DNA of 48,856 nt, counting the filler, from Somniosus microcephalus (Eukaryota), in assembly GCA_052327205.1 (NCBI GenBank). It is 2 parts of 2 records of this genome, joined end to end, with 100 filler letters (N's around TTAATTAATTAA, not from the genome) between each part and the next. Parts side by side here need not be neighbours in the genome. Positions count along the whole stretch, not along the records: positions 1 to 29,371 come from CM126224.1; 1 more part is not named here. The stretch is one strand, 5' to 3'. Below the pieces are notes generated by a model. That model did no database searches, was not told the origin of the DNA, and worked only from the letters and a program-made list of their open reading frames with translations. Both the position numbers and the translations under genes were made by a program. Below, piece by piece: positions 12,193-29,103 of the stretch (position 1 is its first letter; each line of letters starts with the position of its first letter).

Positions 12193-12381
12193 CTTTTTCA
12201 GCATACGGAATCTTTGTGCATTTGCCATCCTCACCACGGAACTGCCAGCCATGGAATGGGCATTCGATACAGTTTCCAATCACGCGGCCCCCCACAGCCA
12301 GGTTAGCACCCAGGTGAGGACAATAAGCGTCAACGACATAGGCCTGTCCATCCTGGCCACGATACACAGCCACCTGCTCAC
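12193..12381 (-). CDS. nvd: Neverland/DAF-36 cholesterol 7-desaturase, Rieske [2Fe-2S] exon
   Basis: Acceptor cctttttgcag|GT, donor AAAG|gtacgg; 189 nt encoding [62 protein letters not shown] with the CxH..CxxH Rieske ligands. Confidence 0.95.
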
Positions 12382-16886: not shown

Positions 16887-17338
16887 TCATAGAATCATAA
16901 AATGATACAGCACAGAAGGAGGCCATTCGGCCCATCGTACCTGTGACAGCTCTTTGAAAGAGCTCTCCAATGAATCCCACTCCCCTGCTCTTTCCCCATA
17001 GCCCTGCAAATGTTTCTTTTTCAAGTATTTATCTAATTTCCTTTTGAAAGTTACCATCGAATCTGCTTCCATTGCCCTTTCAAGCAGTGTATTCCAGGTC
17101 ATCATAACTCACTGTATAGAAATGTTTCTCCTCCTCTTCCCTCAGTCAATAAGACACACCTTCACCACAGGTGAGCAAGGTGGCACTGAGTTCAATATAA
17201 TCAGGAGCATGTCAGTTAACGGCCTGCATTAAGAGTTACTGCTTGCGATGGGCATGGTGCCAGTCCACCACCATGAAAACATTGAACCAGCTCCACCTTG
17301 CTCAAGTCAAGCTGAAAACTGGCCCAGGACCAGGACTC
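16887..17338 (-). mobile_element. CR1 3' tail joined to an unassigned ~190-bp segment (copy 2)
   Basis: Tail TCATAGAATCAT; ORF WNTLLERAMEADSMVTFKRKLDKYL; homologous to 13848-14268 beyond the LINE part. Confidence 0.75.
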
Positions 17339-17508
17339 TGGGAGGGAGGGGAAGGGGTGAAGGCAGAAGTGTGGGAAATGCGACGGACACGGTCGAGGGC
17401 CCCATCAGCCACGGTGGAGGGAAATCCTCGGTTGAGACATATTGGAAACACTAGTATGGAAGGTGGCATCAGCAGAACAGATGCAACAGAGACGGAGAAA
17501 CTGGGAGA
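17335..17508 (-). mobile_element. Penelope-like element, inverted 5' fragment
   Basis: Its reverse complement matches 17634-17704 plus 19035-19145 (TCTCCCAGTTTCTCCGTCTC..ACTAGTG..CTCAACCGAGGATT..CCCTCCCTCCCAGA). Confidence 0.8.
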
Positions 17509-17704
17509 CCAGGATAGATGGCAGGATGGGAGGAAGCCTTTCTCCTCCCTCCCAGAACTACGATAAGGTTTCCCTTGTCCTCACCTGGACTACACTTCCT
17601 CCCACCCCGCTTCCTCTAAAGACTCGATTCCATTCTCCCAGTTTCTCCGTCTCCACTGCATCAGTTCTGACGATGCCACCTTCCACACTAGTGCTTCCGA
17701 TATG

Positions 17705-19034
17705 CCTTGGAAAGCAGTGACGGGATCGGACAAAGTCAACATGGATTTACAAAAGGTAAATCATGCTTGACTAACCTACTGGAATTTTTTGAGGATTTAA
17801 CTGGTAAAATAGATAAGGGAGAACCAGTGGATGTGGTGTATTTGGACTTTCTGAAGGCTTTCGATAAGGTCCCGCATAAGAGATTAGCGTGTAAAGTTAA
17901 GGCACATGGGATTGGGGGCAAGGTATTGACTTGGATAGAGAACTGGTTGGTGGATAGAAAGCAAAGAGTTGGAATAAACGGGTCATTTTCCGAGTGGCAG
18001 GCAGTGACTAGTGGGGTACCGCAAGGATCGGTCCTAGGACCCCAGCTGTTCACAATATATATTAATGATCTGGACGAGGGAATTGGATGTAATATCTCCA
18101 AGTTTGCAGATGACACAAAGCTGGGTGGGAGGGTATGCTGTGAGGAGGATGTCGTGAAACTCCAGTACGATTTGGACAGGTTGGGTGATTGGGCAGAAAC
18201 ATGGCAAATGCACTATAATATGGATAAATGTGAAGTTATCCACTTTGGTGGCAAAAACAGGAAGGCAGATTATTATTTGAATGGCAATAGATTGGGAGAA
18301 GGGGAAGTGCAGAGAGACCTGGGTGTTCTTGTGCACCAGTCGCTGAAGGTAAGCATGCAGGTGCAGCAGGCGGTTAAGAAGGCAAATGGTAGGTTGGCCA
18401 TCATAGCGAGAGGATTCGAGTACAGGAACAAGGATGTCTTGCTGCAGTTGTACAGGGCCTTGGTGAGACCGCACTTTGAGTATTGTGTGCAGTTTTGGTC
18501 GCCATATCTGAGGAAGGATGTTCTTGCCATGGAGGGAGTGCAGCGAAGATTCACCAGGCTGATACCTGGGATGGCAGGAATGACGTATGAGGAGAGATTG
18601 TGTCGATTAGGCTTATACTCACTGGAGTTTAGAAGATTGACAGGGGATCTCATCGAAACCTATAAAATTCTGTCAGGCCTGGACAGACTAGATGCAGGAA
18701 GGATGTTTCCGATGGCCGGGGAGTCCAGAACCAGGGGTCATAGTCGAAGGAGAAGGGGTAAGCCATTTAGGACTGAAATGAGGAGGAATTTCTTCACCCA
18801 GAGAATGGTGAACCTGTGGAATTCTCTGCCACAGAAGGCAGTGGAGGCCAGTTCATTAAATATATTCAAGAAGGAGTTGGATATATTTCTTAAGGCTAAA
18901 GGGATCAAGGGATATGGGGAGAAAGCAGGGACAGGGTACTGAATTTGGATGATCAGTCATGATCTCATTGAATGGCGGAGCAGGCTCGAGGGGCCGAATG
19001 GCCTACTCCTGCTCCTATCTTCTATGTTTCTATG
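17705..19034 (+). mobile_element. HER1/CR1 LINE, 5'-truncated, with an uninterrupted 411-aa RT fragment
   Basis: ORF 17707-18942 ([33 protein letters not shown]); tail TCTATGTTTCTATG; TATG at both junctions. Confidence 0.96.
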
Positions 19035-19871
19035 TCTTCCTTTTTCCTCAACCGAGGATTCCCCTCTACAGTGGTTGGCACGGCCCTCGACCTTGTCCAT
19101 TCCATTTCCCACACCTGCCCTCACCCCTGCCCCTCCCTCCCAGAACCATGATAGGGTTCCCCTTGTCCTCACCTTTCACCCCACCAGCCTCCACATTCAA
19201 CGGATCATTCTCCGCCATTTCTGCCACCTCCAGCGTGATCCCACCACCAAACACATCTTCCCCTCCCAGCATTCCAAAGAGACCATTCTCGCTGCAATAC
19301 CCTGGTCCACGCCATCATCCCCGACACCCCTTCCCACAACACCTTCCTGTGCAAGAGCAGGAGATGCAACACTTGCCCTTTTACCTCCTCCCTTCCCACC
19401 GCCCAGGGCCACAAACACTCCTTCCAGGTGAAACAGCGATTTACTTGTCCTACTTGTAATTTAGTATACGGTATTCGCTGTTACGATGCGGTCTCCTCGA
19501 CAACTGGGGAGACCAAACGCAGATTGAACACCTCCATACAGTCCGCATGCATGACCCTGAGCTTCCAGTCGCCTGTCACTTTAATTCTCCGCTCCACTCC
19601 CACGCTGACCTCTTTGTTCTCAGCCTCCTACACTGTTCTAATGAAGCTCAACATAAGCTCGAGAAACAGCAGCTCATCTTTCGATTCGGTACTTTGCAGC
19701 CTTCTGGACTCAACATCAAGTTCAGTGATTTCAGACTATCAACATTGCTCCCATTTTCTCGGACCATCATGCCTTTTTTCATTTAATCTCTGCTGCCTTC
19801 CACCCTATCACAGACCTGCCCTTTTGTTCTTTCCTCCCCTCCTCCCTTACTACCCTAAAATTTGTTAAATC

Positions 19872-22800
19872 GGACTCGGCTCGGGGGCCCGGGGGGTTAA
19901 CGGACTCGGCTCGCGGGCCCGGGGGGTTAATGGACTCGGCTCACGGGGGCCCGGGGGGTTAACGGACTCGGCTCACGGGCCCGGGGGGTTAATGGACTCG
20001 GCTCGGGGCCCCGGGGGGTTAATGGACTCGGCTCGGGGGCTCGGGGGGTTAATGGACTCGGCTCGGGGGCCCGGGGGGTTAACGGACTCGGCTCACGGGG
20101 GCCCGGGGGGTTAATGGACTCGGCTCGGGGGCCCGGGGGGTTAATGGACTCGGCTCGGGGGCCCGGGGGGTTAACGGACTCGGCCCGGGGGGTCCGGGGG
20201 GTTAACGGACTCGGCTCGGGGGCCCCAGGGGGTTAACGGACTCGGCTCGCGGGCCCGGGGGGTTAACGGACTCGGCTCAGGGGCCCGGGGGGTTAACGGA
20301 CTCGGCTCAGGAGCCCGGGGGGTTAATGGACTCGGCTCGGGGGCCCGGGGGGTTAACGGACTCGGCTCGCGGGCCCGGGGGGTTAACGGACTCGGCTCAC
20401 GGGCCCGGGGGGTTAACGGACTCGGCTCACGGGCCCGGGGGGTTAATGGACTCGGCTCGGGGGCCCGGGGGGTTAATGGACTCGGCTCGGGGGCCCCGGG
20501 GGGTTAATGGACTCGGCTCGGGGGCTCGGGGGGTTAATGGACTCGGTTCGGGGGCTCGGGGGGTTAATGGACTCGGCTCGGGGGCCCGGGGGGTTAATGG
20601 ACTCGGCTCGGGGGCTCGGGGGGTTAATGGACTCGGTTCGGGGGCTCGGGGGGTTAATGGACTCGGCTCGGGGGCTCGGGGGGTTAACGGACTCGGTTCG
20701 GGGGCTCGGGGGGTTAACGGACTCGGCTCACGGGCCCGGGGTGTTAACGGACTCGGCTCAGGGGCCCGGGGGGTTAATGGACTCGGCTCGCGGGCCCGGG
20801 GGGTTAACGGACTCGGTTCGGGAGCCCGGGGGGTTAACGGACTCGGCTCACGGGCCCGGGGGGTTAACGGACTCGGCTCGGGGGCCCGGGGGGTTAATGG
20901 ACTCGGCTCGCGGGCCCGGGGGGTTAACGGACTCGGCTCGGGGGCCCGGGGGGTTAACGGACTCGGCTCGGGGGCCCGGGGGGTTAATGGACTCGGCTCG
21001 CGGGCCCGGGGGGTTAACGGACTCGGCTCAGGAGCCCGGGGGGTTAATGGACTCGGCTCGGGGGGTTAACGGACTCGGCTCGGGGGTCCGGGGGGTTAAT
21101 GGACTCGGCTCGGGGGCCCGGGGGGTTAACGGACTCGGCTCGGGGGCCCGGGGGGTTAATGGACTCGGCTCGGGGGCCAGGGGGGTTAATGGACTCGGCT
21201 CGCGGGCCCGGGGGGTTAACGGACTCGGCTCGGGGGCCCGGGGGGTTAACGGACTCGGCTCGGGGGCCCGGGGGGTTAACGGACTCGGCTCGGGGGCCCG
21301 GGGGGTTAATGGACTCGGCTCGGGGGCCCGGGGGGTTAATGGACTCGGCTCGGGGGCCCGGGGGGTTAACGGACTCGGCTCGGGGGTCCGGGGGGTTAAC
21401 GGACTCGGCTCAGGGGTCCGGGGGGTTAACGGACTCGGCTCGGGGGCCCGGGGGGTTAATGGACTCGGGTCGGGGGCCCGGGGGGTTAACGGACTCGGCT
21501 CGGGGGTCCGGGGGGTTAATGGACTCGGCTCGGGGGTCCGGGGGGTTAATGGACTCGGCTCGGGGGTCCGGGGGGTTAACGGACTCGGCTCGGGGGTCCG
21601 GGGGGTTAACGGACTCGGCTCGGGGGGTTAATGGACTCGGCTCAGGGGCCCGGGGGGTTAACGGACTCGGCTCAGGGGCCCGGGGGGTTAACGGACTCGG
21701 CTCGCGGGGTCCGGGGGGTTAATGGACTCGGCTCGGGGGTCCGGGGGGTTAACGGACTCGGCTCGGGGGTCCGGGGGGTTAACGGACTCGGCTCGGGGGG
21801 TTAATGGACTCGGCTCGGGGGCCCGGGGTGTTAATGGACTCGGCTCGGGGGTCCGGGGGGTTAACGGACTCGGCTCAGTGGCCCGGGGGGTTAACGGACT
21901 CGGCTCGCGGGGTCCGGGGGGTTAATGGACTCGGCTCGGGGGTCCGGGGGGTTAATGGACTCGGCTCGGGGGTCCGGGGTTAACGGACTCGGCTCGGGGG
22001 TCCGGGGTTAACGGACTCGGCTCGCAGGGTCCGGGGGGTTAACGGACTCGGCTCGGGGGCCCGGGGTTAACAGACTCGGCTCGCGGGGTCCGGGGGGTTA
22101 ACGGACTCGGCTCGGGGGTCCGGGGTTAACGGACTCGGCTCGGGGGTCCGGGGTTAACGGACTCGGCTCGCGGGGTCCGGGGGGTTAACGGACTCGGCTC
22201 GGGGGCCCGGGGTTAACAGACTCGGCTCGCGGGGTCCGGGGGGTTAACGGACTCGGCTCGGGGGTCCGGGGTTAACGGACTCGGCTCGGGGGTCCGGGGG
22301 GTTAACGGACTCGGCTCGGGGGTCCGGGGGGTTAACGGACTCGGCTCAGGGGGTCCGGGGATTAACGGACTCGGCTCGGGGGTCCGGGGGGTTAACGGAC
22401 TCGGCTCGCGGGCCCGGGGGTTAACGGACTCGGCTCGGGGGTCCGGGGGGTTAACGGACTCGGCTCGGGGGCCCGGGGGGTTAACAGACTCGGCTCGCGG
22501 GCCCGGGGGGTTAACGGACTCGGCTCAGGGGCCCGGGGGGTTAACGGACTCGGCTCGGGGGTCCGGGGGGTTAACGGACTCGGCTCGGGGGCCCGGGGGG
22601 TTAACAGACTCGGCTCGGGGGCCCGGGGGGTTAATGGACTCGGCTCGGGGGTCCGGGGGGTTAACGGACTCGGCTCGGGGGTCCGGGGGGTTAACAGACT
22701 CGGCTCGCGGGGTCCGGGGGGTTAACGGACTCGGCTCGCGGGGTCCGGGGGGTTAACGGACTCGGCTCGCGGGGTCCGGGTGGTTAACGGACTCGGCTCG

Positions 22801-23328
22801 GGGGCCCGGGGTTAACGGACTCGGCTCGCGGGGTCCGGGGGGTTAACGGACTCGGCTCGCGGGGTCCGGGGGGTTAACGGACTCGGCTCGCGGGCCCGGG
22901 GTTAACGGACTCGGCTCGGGGGCCCGGGGGGTTAACGGACTCGGCTCGCGGGCCCGGGGTTAACGGACTCGGCTCGCGGGCCCGGGGGGTTAACGGACTC
23001 GGCTCGCGGGCCCGGGGTTAACGGACTCGGCTCGGGGGCCCGGGGGGTTAACGGACTCGGCTCGCGGGCCCGGGGTTAACGGACTCGGCTCGCGGGCCCG
23101 GGGGGTTAACGGACTCGGCTCGGGGGCCCGGGGTTAACGGACTCGGCTCGGGGGCCCGGGGTTAACGGACTCGGCTCGGGGGCCCGGGGGGTTAATGGAC
23201 TCGGCTCACGGGCCCGGGGGGTTAACGGACTCGGCTCGGGGGCCTGGGGGGTTAATGGACTCGGCTCGGGGGCCCAGGGGTTAATGGACTCGGCTCACGG
23301 GCCCGGGGGGTTAACGGACTCGGCTCGG
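19872..23328. repeat. 30-bp GC/CpG-rich VNTR (~115 copies)
   Basis: Unit GGACTCGGCTCGGGGGCCCGGGGGGTTAA(C/T), with 20-31 bp variants. Confidence 0.97.
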
Positions 23329-23359
23329 GAGTGCCCGACTAAGGTTCACGGGGTAAGGG

Positions 23360-23420
23360 CAAAGGTCACCGCCGCCATAACCGGAAGCAGGCGGTGAGAG
23401 ATGCTGGTAGTGTTCCGGTG
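23360..23420 (+). promoter_or_regulatory. Housekeeping-promoter-like motifs (YY1-like, ETS)
   Basis: CCGCCGCCAT at 23369-23378, ACCGGAAG at 23380-23387 and TTCCGG at 23413; ~100 bp upstream of a Kozak ACCATGG. Confidence 0.45.
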
Positions 23421-23479
23421 TGGAATACCCCGGGTTCGCCGTGTCGGAGTCTGTGGCGCGGCTGCCACTGGTTCTCACC

Positions 23480-23848
23480 ATGGATGTTGATTTAATGTGC
23501 CCTGGATTATACTGTGGAAAGCAAATAACAGAAAGCCTAAATGGTAGTCAGCTGCAATATGGAGAGTGTGGGGTATGCCCAAGAGGGGAAAGAACAGATG
23601 CTCTGAAGATTTGTGGTAAATGTGAGGAATCACCAGAGCTCTATGACTGGCTGTATCTTGGTTTCATGGCAATGCTACCTTTGGTTTTTCATTGGTTTTT
23701 TATTGAATGGTATTCAGGCAAAAAGAGTCCCTCTAGAAAGAAAGAGTCGGCGGTGAGTCAGCAGAAGCAGCGATGGAGGCCACGACGACCCACTGTAGCA
23801 CGGCGGCCGGCAGCTCCTCGTCGGGAGGCTCGGAGGTCGAACCGGTAG
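23480..23848 (+). pseudogene. JKAMP: Processed, 3'-truncated JKAMP (JNK1/MAPK8-associated membrane protein) copy; chimeric 122-aa ORF
   Basis: CPGLYCGK..YGECGVCPRGERT..SPELYDWLYLGFMAMLPLVFHWFFIEWYSGKKS closely matches the recalled JKAMP N-terminus; no introns; similarity stops at 23727. Confidence 0.9.
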
Positions 23849-24230
23849 GAGGGAATGCGGCCAGCGTACCGAGGTCGGGAAAAGCAGGCCCTGGAAGGTC
23901 GGACACCGCGGGAGGCTCGGAGGTCAGACCAGGTGGAAGGAGAGCCAGGGAGAAGCAGGCCCCGGGACGTCGGTACCACGGCGGCTGAAGATTGTCGGGC
24001 AGGAGTGCGGGAAAGGCGGAGCGAGGCGAGAGCGGACCCTATTGTGATGGCGCTGATGAAGATGGCTGCCGTCCTTGCGGGCTCCGTGCGTACCAGGCAG
24101 CTAAGTGTCCTTTGCTGATTGGTGCGCTCGGCTCGTTAAGAAAAAAGCATTTCACTGACTGGATTTCACTTGTTGTAGTTGGTGATGTGACAAATAAAAC
24201 TGAAATTGAAATTGAAATTGAACTTCTTCC

Positions 24231-24267
24231 AGTTCTGACGAAAGGTCATCGACCTCAAACATTAACT
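24231..24267 (+). ncRNA. Degenerate minimal hammerhead ribozyme motif of a Penelope-like element
   Basis: AGTT-CTGACGA-A-AGGTC(ATC)GACCT-CAAAC-ATT-AACT: stems I and II are present but the GAAA core is mutated to CAAA. Confidence 0.55.
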
Positions 24268-24594
24268 CTGTTTCTCTCTCCACAGAAGCTGCCTGGCCTG
24301 CTGAGTATTTCCGACATTTTCTGTTTTTATTTCAGATTTCCAGTAGCTGCAGTATTTAGTTATTTTTTTGAGTGTGGAATGAAGTGAAGTGGATGGTTAG
24401 ACTGCCATTGGCTCACCTTCCAGAGTTAGGAGATTAAGTAGTGCTCTTCCCCAAGGTTACTCACGGTCAGTCACCTCCCTCAGGGAGGGCCCGTGACACA
24501 CCAACAATCTTTGATCAAACTGGCTTCTCATGTTCCTTGCTGCCCGAGTGAAGCTTACTATTCTTGGCATCAGGTAAAGAATGACTGAAGTGGT

Positions 24595-24740
24595 GAAAGA
24601 CTTCCTATAGTATCTTTCACAACCTCAGGACGTCCACTGAAGTATTTCTGAAGTGCAGTCACTGTAATCGAGGAAGCCCAGCAGCCAATTTGTGCACAGC
24701 AAGATCCCATAATTACGAGATAATCTGCTTTAGTGATGGT
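24595..24740 (-). mobile_element. Deu-domain SINE remnant with an L2-type tail
   Basis: TTTCACAACCTCAGGACGTCC..GCAGCCAATTTGTGCACAGCAAGATCCCA; reverse-complement relative of 16725-16880. Confidence 0.55.
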
Positions 24741-25373
24741 TGGGTTGGGCTGGGAGTGGTGTGGGAAGGAGAGGGTGTTGGTGTGTGTGGGGGGGGGAAG
24801 GGGAGTGGCGGCACGGGAGGGGGTGTCCGGCACTGGGGAAAGAATTCCCAAGTTACTGATGGTCTGAATTGCAGATGAGCTTTCTGGGTTGGTAAATAGG
24901 ATCACCGAGTGCACAAATGTTCAGTTTGAAAGGGTCGCTGGCCAGCAGGCTCTCCTCCCATGGTTACAGCCCATGTTTAAACACAAACTGTTTATGTCGA
25001 TCGTCACTGAAACCTGGTTACTCTGCACAATGCAATCAAATCCTACCACTCACAGGCTCGCTACGCACACGAGTCACAACATTGTAACTATGAGTAAACA
25101 CGCTGGAGATAGAATGAGGGATGGTGAGTGCGCCCTTGACATGTATTGTTAGAGAACCACACGCAACAGCACCGCAGCGCACCTCTTAGACAGGAGCACG
25201 GCGGTACAAGCAACTCTGCTCATTCTGAATGAACGTCATGCTGGTCACTGAGTAAGTGTGCAACACAGAGACACAACGCAGCCCTCACTCAAAACTCGCA
25301 GTAACCACTCGCAAACAAACCAGACCTGGGAGTACGAAAAAGATTGCTGAAAACACTCGTGCTCCAGGGAATG

Positions 25374-28986: not shown

Positions 28987-29103
28987 GTCATCGGCCTGAA
29001 GCGTTAACTCTTTCTCTCTCCACAGATGTTGCCTGGCCTGTCGAGGATTTCCAGCATTTTCAGTTTTTATTTCAGAGTTCTAGCAGCCGCAGTATTTGGT
29101 TTG
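28987..29103 (+). mobile_element. Penelope-like 3' terminal fragment
   Basis: Homologous to 24245-24360 (GTCATCG..GTTAACTC..CTCTCTCCACAGA..CCTGGCCTG..TTTTTATTTCAGA..GCAGTATT). Confidence 0.75.

What the first reader, a model, noticed from the sequence alone, without database searches (positions are those of the whole stretch)
19872..24222. SVA-like composite retroposon: VNTR + spliced JKAMP 5' exons + LINE-tailed element, inserted as one block
Seen: removing 19872-24220 rejoins a Penelope-like 3' region (..AAAATTTGTTAAATC | AACTTCTTCCAGTTCTGACGA..), so the ~4.35 kb appears to be a single insertion. Its order is: 30-bp GC-rich VNTR, promoter/UTR-like DNA, intronless JKAMP coding sequence, an unrelated GC-rich body, then AATAAA and a (TTGAAA)n tail with no poly(A). 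Known: ordinary retrocopies are 5'-truncated and end in poly(A). Many non-L1 LINEs mobilise only RNAs bearing their own 3' tail. Human SVA_F1 arose by splicing of MAST2 exon 1 into an SVA. Inference: a JKAMP transcript was exon-trapped by an intronic tail-bearing element, which made host exons mobile. This would be a route to retrocopies and exon shuffling via stringent LINEs, and possibly a new composite family in cartilaginous fish.
Basis: partly seen in the sequence, partly recalled or inferred. Interest (0 to 1): 0.9.

Follow-up and report, generated by a model that had tools for sequence, protein, structure and literature searches.

The report
Shark retroposon carrying spliced JKAMP exons
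The first three exons of the host gene JKAMP lie here without introns, joined at an exon end to a repeat with a short-repeat tail and no poly(A), and the same join is present in an estimated tens of copies per genome in related sharks, which likely marks a jumping-element family born by splicing host exons onto a LINE-type tail, a route best described in apes.

Summary
19872-24220 sits inside one older high-copy (Penelope-like) repeat. The rejoined site lacks about 3 bp of that repeat's consensus and shows no target-site duplication. In contigs of two close relatives the JKAMP part is about 20-35 times deeper than the single-copy flank. In a third organism one 573-bp contig runs from the VNTR edge through both exon joins and the linker into the body. 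So this is a multi-copy, JKAMP-headed subfamily of a much larger tail-bearing repeat. Not shown: the parent locus with the element in intron 3, that the copies are dispersed rather than clustered, the LINE partner (Rex1-type is recalled only), the VNTR's origin, and expression. It works like SVA_F1 exon trapping but is not an SVA (VNTR at the 5' end, no poly(A), no duplication). New variant of a known kind; interest 0.65.

The parts
19035..19871 (+). Left part of the older high-copy host repeat (Penelope-like, broken endonuclease-like frame and 3' region); insertion target
   Evidence: Atlas lead (weak); collinearity with the right part table 7
19872..23329 (+). 30-bp GC-rich VNTR, 117 units, CpG observed/expected 1.04, with regional unit variants; starts at a unit boundary with 1 letter (C) fitting either side
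   Evidence: joined to the UTR in contig 17 of run X5 (23 VNTR letters aligned, 70 more letters run on leftwards unseen)
23330..23482 (+). JKAMP 5' UTR / promoter-proximal DNA and ATG (exon 1; the exon 1/2 join lies at 23482/3 or 23483/4, inferred)
   Evidence: alternative shark N-termini all join just before Asp2; depth 35x (X1) and 15x (X3) single copy at 23335
23483..23572 (+). JKAMP exon 2, joined without intron to exon 3
   Evidence: 12 of 22 proteins that deviate before the CPRG motif have Gln or Lys (CAG/AAG acceptor) just before Val33
23573..23727 (+). JKAMP exon 3, ending GKK-AG at the conserved phase-2 donor
   Evidence: 30 of 43 proteins that deviate after GKK continue with Arg (AG+G); X1 contig 1 (23572-23719) at depth 225 against 6.7 for the flank
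23728..23743 (+). 16-nt linker of the JKAMP-linked copies; pyrimidine run plus AG; likely intron DNA behind a cryptic acceptor
   Evidence: summed depth at 23735 is JKAMP-level (417 X1, 1055 X3, 17 X5); X5 contig 18 matches only from 23744 and runs on 44 unlike letters leftwards
23744..24139 (+). GC-rich body of a high-copy non-coding repeat, likely a 5'-truncated copy; no Pfam, Rfam or protein match
   Evidence: summed depth 350-4800 times single copy at listed places, rising 3'-ward; blank
24140..24199 (+). LINE-type 3' end motif with AATAAA (24193)
   Evidence: the same two motifs, then a short AT-rich stretch, in loci L001 and L002; fold not significant
24200..24222 (+). (T/C)TGAAA repeat tail, about 3.8 units; last AA shared with the target
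24221..24357 (+). Right part of the host repeat (its 3' end)
   Evidence: summed depth 1-7 million in X1 and X3; loose ends at 24221 and 24357; second copy at 28987-29101

Best explanation
The block is one copy of a multi-copy composite in which intron-free JKAMP exons 1-3 are joined at the exon-3 donor to a tail-bearing repeat; it likely arose by splicing and was likely copied into new sites again and again by a LINE that recognises that tail. Steps: (1, inferred) a 5'-truncated copy of the high-copy repeat lay in sense in or behind JKAMP intron 3, 16 nt after a cryptic AG. (2, inferred from the exact exon end) A transcript starting in or before the VNTR was spliced exon 1-2-3 into that acceptor and ended at the repeat's tail. 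(3, inferred from the tail, the 2-letter 3' microhomology and the 3-5 bp target loss) A non-L1 LINE of the CR1/L2/Rex1 kind reverse-transcribed it at the target. (4, shown by depth) The joined form reached tens of copies and is shared by three organisms. Whether the source is still the parent gene or promoter-carrying daughter copies is open. The window's copy is likely an old, dead insert whose VNTR turned over in place.
For: Exon ends. A random switch would hit within 1 nt of an exon end in about 2% of cases (the exon count is recalled). One block: flanks collinear with the host-repeat consensus (table 7). Multi-copy: single contigs at 33.6x (X1 contig 1) and 21.3x (X3 contig 9) the single-copy flank contig. 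Contigs with the window's letter lie at 28-45x at 23867 and 23931 and at 15-35x at 23335. X5 contig 17 bridges exon 1/2, exon 2/3, exon 3/linker and linker/body with more than 31 letters on each side. The window's own locus has a single-copy right flank (6.7 in X1, 17.4 in X3). Its private letters appear at single-copy depth (G23566: 1.2x X1, 0.9x X3; T23689: 0.8x X1), so this copy exists in other samples and apart from the rest. X1 contig 1 begins at 23572, where an intron-bearing path ending in AG would merge (consistent, not proof). Precedent: SVA_F1 and pt_SVA_D6 (PMC6139936, passages); stringent 3'-end recognition (PMC3747384, passages); short target truncations in 6 of 30 ZfL2-1 inserts in HeLa-RC cells (PMC4245944, passages).
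Against: The parent locus was not seen. No intron position was shown in a named shark: the 43 and 22 informative proteins are other vertebrates or unnamed. The flanks of the other copies were not seen. Copy depth falls little from body to VNTR edge (41x to 35x in X1; 30x to 15x in X3), which also fits DNA-level amplification. No autonomous LINE with this tail was found. The tail fold is not significant (z -1.26 and -1.86). No listed contig bridges the window's own 3' junction at 24222, and the 5' junction at 19872 was outside the stretch laid. The tool warns that summed depths are no copy numbers; single-contig depths are better but still rough.
Confidence: 0.62

Rival explanations
1. One or two retrotransposition events made the chimera, and the tens of copies come from tandem or segmental DNA duplication of another insert. 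It would then not be a mobile family.
For: Little 5' truncation across the copies; an unbroken 148-bp contig at depth 225; tandem arrays fill 29% of this window.
Against: The window's copy has a single-copy flank and differs from the common letters at 8 listed places in 398 bp, so it is a separate insert. The joined form is also in organism C, with its own diagnostic letters. Short elements are often full length (general knowledge).
Confidence: 0.18
2. The join was made by a template switch or RNA ligation during reverse transcription, from the tail-bearing RNA onto ordinary JKAMP mRNA, with 16 extra letters at the switch.
For: A 16-nt linker of unknown source lies at the join. Such LINE chimeras are described in Magnaporthe (PMC2104539, listing and abstract start only), and a switch is reported for SVA (PMC12593883, passages).
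Against: The JKAMP part ends at the exon-3 donor within 1 letter, a roughly 2% coincidence. The linker reads like a pyrimidine run plus AG.
Confidence: 0.08
3. An alternative JKAMP transcript polyadenylated at the repeat's AATAAA was moved by a poly(A)-reading L1/Tx1-type element or by the Penelope-like host's enzyme, and the tail is only a passenger.
For: AATAAA lies 2-25 nt before the end. Cartilaginous fishes have many retrocopies (14,081 in the 2026 preprint).
Against: No A run follows. The insert ends exactly in the short-repeat tail, with target loss instead of a 13-15 bp duplication (PMC4245944 passages).
Confidence: 0.07
4. The block is a misassembly, or three independent insertions (VNTR, JKAMP retrocopy, tail element) that landed side by side.
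For: No listed record spans the window's outer junctions. VNTRs are common in this window.
Against: One contig of another organism holds VNTR edge, UTR, exons, linker and body in the same order. The flanks rejoin within 3 bp of the consensus. Window-private letters occur at single-copy depth in other samples.
Confidence: 0.04

Closest known systems
SVA_F1 (MAST2 exon 1) and pt_SVA_D6 (STK40 exon 1); PMC6139936, PMC5753468, PMC12593883 (passages read)
   Same: Host 5' exon sequence ending at an exon end, joined to a non-autonomous retroposon; GC-rich head that may act as promoter; amplified to tens of copies (84 and 94 there).
   Different: Here there are three spliced exons with an ATG and an open 122-codon frame, a VNTR in front of the exons instead of in the middle, no poly(A), no target duplication, a non-primate host and a likely non-L1 mover.
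SINEs and bipartite non-autonomous elements moved by stringent LINEs through a shared 3' tail; PMC3747384, PMC5786205 (passages read)
   Same: Non-coding body ending in a conserved motif and a short-repeat tail; high copy number rising towards the 3' end.
   Different: The head is spliced protein-gene exons plus a VNTR, not a tRNA, 5S or 7SL head (no Rfam match in 23200-24500). The partner LINE is not identified.
Rex1/Babar 3' ends (the sequence likeness is recalled, not tested); PMC6274825 (passages) describes a conserved 3' UTR followed by an oligonucleotide of variable length
   Same: Conserved 3' motif followed by a short repeat; Rex1 is abundant in rays (PMC13343379, passages).
   Different: No Rex1 sequence was available to compare. 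L001 and L002 carry the motif without a reverse transcriptase frame in front.
Ordinary processed pseudogene
   Same: Introns lost; inserted at a new site.
   Different: It keeps the 5' end and lacks exons 4 onward; it has a foreign 3' part and no poly(A).
LTR-mediated chimeric retrocopies; PMC5131818 (passages read)
   Same: Gene fragment fused to element sequence, without poly(A).
   Different: No matching element sequence on both sides; the join is at a splice donor.

Membership tests
SVA / VNTR composites (SVA, LAVA, PVA, FVA) | Composite of modules of separate origin | tested here: met
   VNTR, JKAMP exons, linker, high-copy body, tail
SVA / VNTR composites (SVA, LAVA, PVA, FVA) | Central VNTR behind a hexamer and Alu-like head | tested here: not met
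   The VNTR is the 5'-most part; no Rfam match in 23200-24500
SVA / VNTR composites (SVA, LAVA, PVA, FVA) | Poly(A) tail and 10-20 bp target-site duplication | tested here: not met
   TTGAAA-type tail; longest shared word across the junction flanks is 3 letters; about 3 bp lost
SVA / VNTR composites (SVA, LAVA, PVA, FVA) | Mobilised by L1 | not testable with these tools
   Needs an assay; the junctions argue against it
Exon-trapping subfamily (SVA_F1 type, as a way of working) | Host sequence ends at an exon 3' end | tested here: met
   (30 of 43 deviating proteins continue with Arg after GKK); the shark position is inferred from conservation
Exon-trapping subfamily (SVA_F1 type, as a way of working) | Acceptor AG found in the source element or locus | not testable with these tools
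   No genome held; 1165 loose ends not shown
Exon-trapping subfamily (SVA_F1 type, as a way of working) | Joined form amplified to many copies | tested here: met
   33.6x and 21.3x the single-copy depth in single contigs
Exon-trapping subfamily (SVA_F1 type, as a way of working) | Copies dispersed, each with its own flanks | tested here: inconclusive
   Shown for the window's copy only (single-copy right flank)
Stringent-LINE-tailed non-autonomous retroposon | 3' end shared with an autonomous LINE | tested here: inconclusive
   Motif in L001 and L002 but no RT upstream; 0 hits
Stringent-LINE-tailed non-autonomous retroposon | Short tandem repeat at the very 3' end | tested here: met
   24200-24222
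Stringent-LINE-tailed non-autonomous retroposon | Stem-loop in the 3' end | tested here: inconclusive
   z -1.26 and -1.86 for the window, 0.92 and -0.16 for L001 and L002
SINE proper | Small-RNA (tRNA, 5S, 7SL) head | tested here: not met
   Rfam at E up to 1: 0 matches in 23200-24500
Ordinary processed pseudogene | Introns lost | tested here: met
Ordinary processed pseudogene | mRNA 3' end and poly(A) kept | tested here: not met
   JKAMP homology stops at residue 84 of about 310; no A run
LTR-mediated retrocopy | Element sequence of one family on both sides of the gene fragment | tested here: not met
   The body has no long match elsewhere in the window

The most novel reading that the evidence does not exclude
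A self-propagating, VNTR-headed composite retroposon in sharks: the VNTR plus the captured JKAMP CpG-rich 5' end serve as its own promoter, a Rex1-type LINE moves it through the tail, and daughter copies act as new sources. It would be an SVA counterpart built independently outside primates on a stringent LINE, and one case of a general route that explains why the most retrocopied genes of cartilaginous fishes are odd ones (MIPOL1, SUDS3, SDF2L1, SLU7, ZNF276).
Probability: 0.3. Interest if true: 0.85.

Novelty: new variant of a known kind. Interest (0 to 1): 0.65.

Why it matters
Stringent LINEs are thought to ignore host mRNAs that lack their 3' end (PMC3747384), yet cartilaginous fishes hold many retrocopies whose top parents are not the usual housekeeping genes (bioRxiv 10.64898/2026.06.26.734816, section 6). 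A host transcript that gains a LINE tail by splicing and then multiplies gives a concrete, checkable route. It predicts retrocopy families that keep 5' exons, stop at a splice donor and end in a short-repeat tail. It also spreads a promoter-like sequence, a large VNTR and a truncated membrane-protein frame to new sites, and it can be mistaken for gene-family expansion in annotation.

Tried and rejected
No whole genome is held for this window, so the parent locus and the copy flanks stayed out of reach. Run search: no RNA holder listed; 20 of 24 rows hold part of the stretch, 2 hold half or more of its words; only 4 rows were laid. RNA lay (X23, about 24% of the run read): the JKAMP part is covered at depth about 2 from one start, the VNTR edge and 23330-23407 at 0, and the body on both strands. 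Protein searches found no JKAMP-body chimera: 48 hits of 67-214 aa, 120 of 127 longer hits listed, and the best 150 of 168 representatives, none matching beyond query residue 102. The exact protein is not in the collection. An 89-aa body frame scored nothing among 373 candidates. Tail scans: 0 hits with the 24-letter pattern, 2 with the gapped pattern in metagenomes, 0 in viral contigs; both loci lack an RT frame. The idea that the 40 nt after the array are a decayed VNTR unit was rejected (96 of 1000 shuffles score as well), and so was VNTR-body kinship through a shared 9-mer (35 of 1000 shuffles, but background 40-mers reach the same score). Tail stem-loop not significant. Pfam does not confirm the Penelope label. 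Earlier scan findings by place or sequence: nothing; by words: nothing, loose analogues. Literature: 10 searches listed no report of this element; none of the 20 rows listed mentions JKAMP. The library lacks most subscription papers and Repbase, so this is weak evidence of novelty.
Full report
What is in the sequence. The block starts at 19872 with a 30-bp GC-rich array of 116.5 copies, or 117 units in 45 variants with regional drift: TAAT-ended units are common in the 5' half, GTCC and 28-bp units in the 3' half. After 150 bp of CpG-rich DNA comes an ATG at 23480. The frame gives 122 aa, and residues 7-87 match Pfam JAMP at E 5e-28. The best named relatives are shark JKAMP proteins, and in the alignment the N-terminus is closest to Heptranchias, so the host is likely a squalomorph shark (inference). 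Homology stops at GKKS. Then follow 495 bp without Pfam, Rfam or protein match (one Pfam row at E 0.05 is below its cut-off), AATAAA at 24193, and a tail of about 3.8 TTGAAA-type units to 24222. There is no poly(A).

The JKAMP part is spliced and ends at a donor. Of 144 fetched proteins with the exon-3 core, 43 do not continue normally after GKK; 30 of these continue with Arg (AG plus the G of a GT donor or of a later exon), 12 with Ser and 1 with Tyr. Of 22 that deviate before the CPRG motif, 12 have Gln or Lys (CAG, AAG) right before Val33. So vertebrate JKAMP has introns before Val33 and inside codon 84, and the window joins the first without intron and leaves the gene exactly at the second. 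None of these informative proteins is named as a cartilaginous fish, so the shark positions are inferred from conservation. Alternative shark N-termini all join just before Asp2, which places the exon 1/2 join.

One inserted block. No genome is held. I laid 4 of the 24 listed runs on 23300-24900: contigs of organisms A (X1), B (X3) and C (X5), and raw RNA reads of A (X23). Records that match the host repeat from 24221 carry to their left a consensus ending TGTTACATCTCT (154, 173, 40 and 327 records). The window's left flank ends TGTTAAATC and agrees at 13 of the last 16 comparable letters (by eye), but lacks about 3 letters. There is no duplication, and the AA at 24221-24222 fits tail or target. 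Short target truncations are known for L2-clade inserts: 6 of 30 ZfL2-1 inserts in HeLa-RC cells, against 21 with short duplications, while L1 peaks at 13-15 bp duplications (PMC4245944, passages). The Penelope label of the host repeat is a lead only (and recall). Its high copy number is shown (summed depth in the millions). No listed record bridges 24222, and 19872 was outside the stretch.

The joined form is a family. The flank contig 24328-24706 is single copy: depth 6.7 in X1 with 2 differences in 379 bp, and 17.4 in X3 with 1 difference. Against that, X1 contig 1 (23572-23719) has depth 225 (33.6x) and X3 contig 9 (23393-23506) has depth 371 (21.3x); contig 9 crosses the exon 1/2 join, though with only about 23 letters on the right, short of the tool's 31-letter rule. 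X5 contig 17 (573 bp, depth 17) aligns from 23307 to 23831 with 16 other letters and 22 gap letters. It bridges both exon joins, the exon 3/linker join and the linker/body join. It also holds 23 VNTR letters, and 70 more letters run on leftwards where I could not see them. X5 has no single-copy flank laid. Scaling by two neighbouring repeats suggests a single-copy depth of 0.5-0.8, hence some 20-30 copies, but that is rough. The tool warns that summed depths are no copy numbers, so I read all this as 'tens'. If copies differ by 1-2% from their consensus, the counts rise to about 30-60.

The body is a larger family, and the JKAMP-headed form is a subfamily. Summed depth at listed body places is 350-4800 times single copy and reaches 7000-13000 times in the tail motif (inflated by overlapping contigs). 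At 23758 most contigs have G, while those with the window's T lie at JKAMP level (421 of 4501 in X1, 514 of 13921 in X3, 17 of 72 in X5). X5 contig 18 matches only from 23744 and runs on 44 unlike letters to the left. So 23728-23743 is a linker of the JKAMP-linked copies. It reads as a pyrimidine run plus AG, as intron DNA near an acceptor would (inference). At 23867 and 23931 the window's letters lie at 28-45x in A and B and are absent in C, so the A/B copies share changes made after the split from C (or come from another source lineage). The window's copy differs from the common letters at 8 listed places in 398 bp (66 rows of that table were not shown), two of them amino-acid changes away from the conserved Asp29 and Leu70. 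That is more than the 0.3-0.5% flank difference, so the insert is older than the split of the window's sample from A and B. Its private letters appear at single-copy depth in X1 and X3 at 23566 and in X1 at 23689, which argues against misassembly. At 23402, 23641 and 23698 they are absent, as expected if contigs drop rare variants.

The VNTR. Its summed depth equals 50-1800 units per genome, depending on overlap inflation. That is compatible with arrays tied to the family and does not point to a large independent satellite, but it cannot tell whether the array is native JKAMP flank or an added module. Tandem arrays fill 29% of this window, so local expansion after insertion is plausible. A decayed-unit link between array and UTR failed its shuffle test.

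The mover. The end motif recurs, with a short AT-rich stretch behind it, in two unnamed contigs (L001, L002), both without an RT frame. I recall this kind of end from fish Rex1/Babar elements; that is memory, not a test. A review describes Rex1 as having a conserved 3' UTR followed by an oligonucleotide of variable length (PMC6274825, passages), and Rex1 coverage is highest in rays and two teleosts (PMC13343379, passages). The fold of the tail is not significant.

Expression. In about 24% of X23 the JKAMP part is covered by 2 reads from one start that carry the common letters. Eight reads from two starts show a 4-letter gap at 23735 but do not seem to reach 23758; they may be chance or another transcript. 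No conclusion.

Mechanism. Most likely (0.62) a truncated tail-bearing repeat in or behind intron 3 trapped exons 1-3 by splicing, and the resulting RNA was repeatedly retrotransposed through its tail by a non-L1 LINE. Shown: intron loss, the exon-end join, the single block, the tail, the multi-copy joined form in three organisms. Inferred: the source locus, the splice acceptor, the mover, dispersal. Rivals: DNA-level amplification of one insert (0.18), template switch (0.08), poly(A)-type or Penelope mover (0.07), artefact or side-by-side inserts (0.04).

Comparison with what is known. It works like SVA_F1 and pt_SVA_D6, where a GC-rich first exon was spliced into an SVA and reached 84 and 94 copies (PMC6139936, passages; PMC5753468; PMC12593883). 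It is not an SVA: the VNTR is terminal, and poly(A) and duplication are missing. It shares the tail logic of stringent LINE/SINE pairs (PMC3747384; PMC5786205) but has no small-RNA head. It is not an LTR-type chimera (PMC5131818). Ten library searches listed no such element in cartilaginous fishes; Repbase and most subscription papers are not covered. Two unchecked notes of this scan describe analogues, a SINE-tailed WEE2 retrocopy family in elephant shark (e1-8038773) and a spliced NSUN6-L1 chimera (e1-7856055); they are leads, not support. A 2026 preprint counts 14,081 retrocopies in cartilaginous fishes with unusual top parents (10.64898/2026.06.26.734816, passages and section 6; supplements not seen). 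Tail-trapped families would explain that list, and the idea can be tested.

Verdict. Observation confirmed, interpretation partly supported, family status supported by depth and by a bridging contig. New variant of a known kind, interest 0.65. The boldest reading, a self-propagating SVA counterpart on a stringent LINE, has probability 0.3 and interest 0.85 if true.

Noticed in passing
window 12193-12381 (-): A coding exon with AG/GT ends and a Rieske domain (Pfam E 1.5e-19); it resembles cholesterol 7-desaturase/neverland (name recalled). The insert may lie in or upstream of this gene, in the opposite direction.
   Followed up: partly
window 17692-19035 (+): A LINE reverse transcriptase frame of 416 aa (RVT_1, E 3.4e-23) with a short CTATGTTT-type tail, directly abutting the host repeat's left part; CR1 type by recall.
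   Followed up: partly
protein P0179, residues 1-66: The skate JKAMP isoform X1 has an N-terminal extension with an ALKBH8_N hit (E 1.7e-5) that looks like a LINE reverse transcriptase fragment (Rex1-like by recall): a second, separate element exonised at the 5' end of JKAMP in an annotation.
   Followed up: partly
window 28987-29101 (+), 17337-17436 (-), 17544-17586 (+): Further fragments of the same Penelope-like repeat at 84-91% identity.
   Followed up: no
window 23715-23750 (approximate): Eight RNA reads from two starts in run X23 show a 4-letter gap at 23735 and seem to match only about 30-40 letters across the exon 3/linker join; chance or a related transcript.
   Followed up: no
window 23822-23973: Two pairs of diverged direct repeats inside the body (33 nt at spacing 87, 26 nt at spacing 71). 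An X1 contig skips 23821-23946.
   Followed up: no
window 23372-23418: CCGCCAT, CCGGAA and TTCCGG motifs in the UTR, which I recall as YY1- and ETS-type sites of housekeeping promoters; the copy may include DNA at or before the normal start site.
   Followed up: no
window 24596-24757: Another very high-copy repeat just right of the insertion site (summed depth up to 0.5-1 million).
   Followed up: no
whole window: Eight large tandem arrays fill 14,025 bp (29%) of the window.
   Followed up: no
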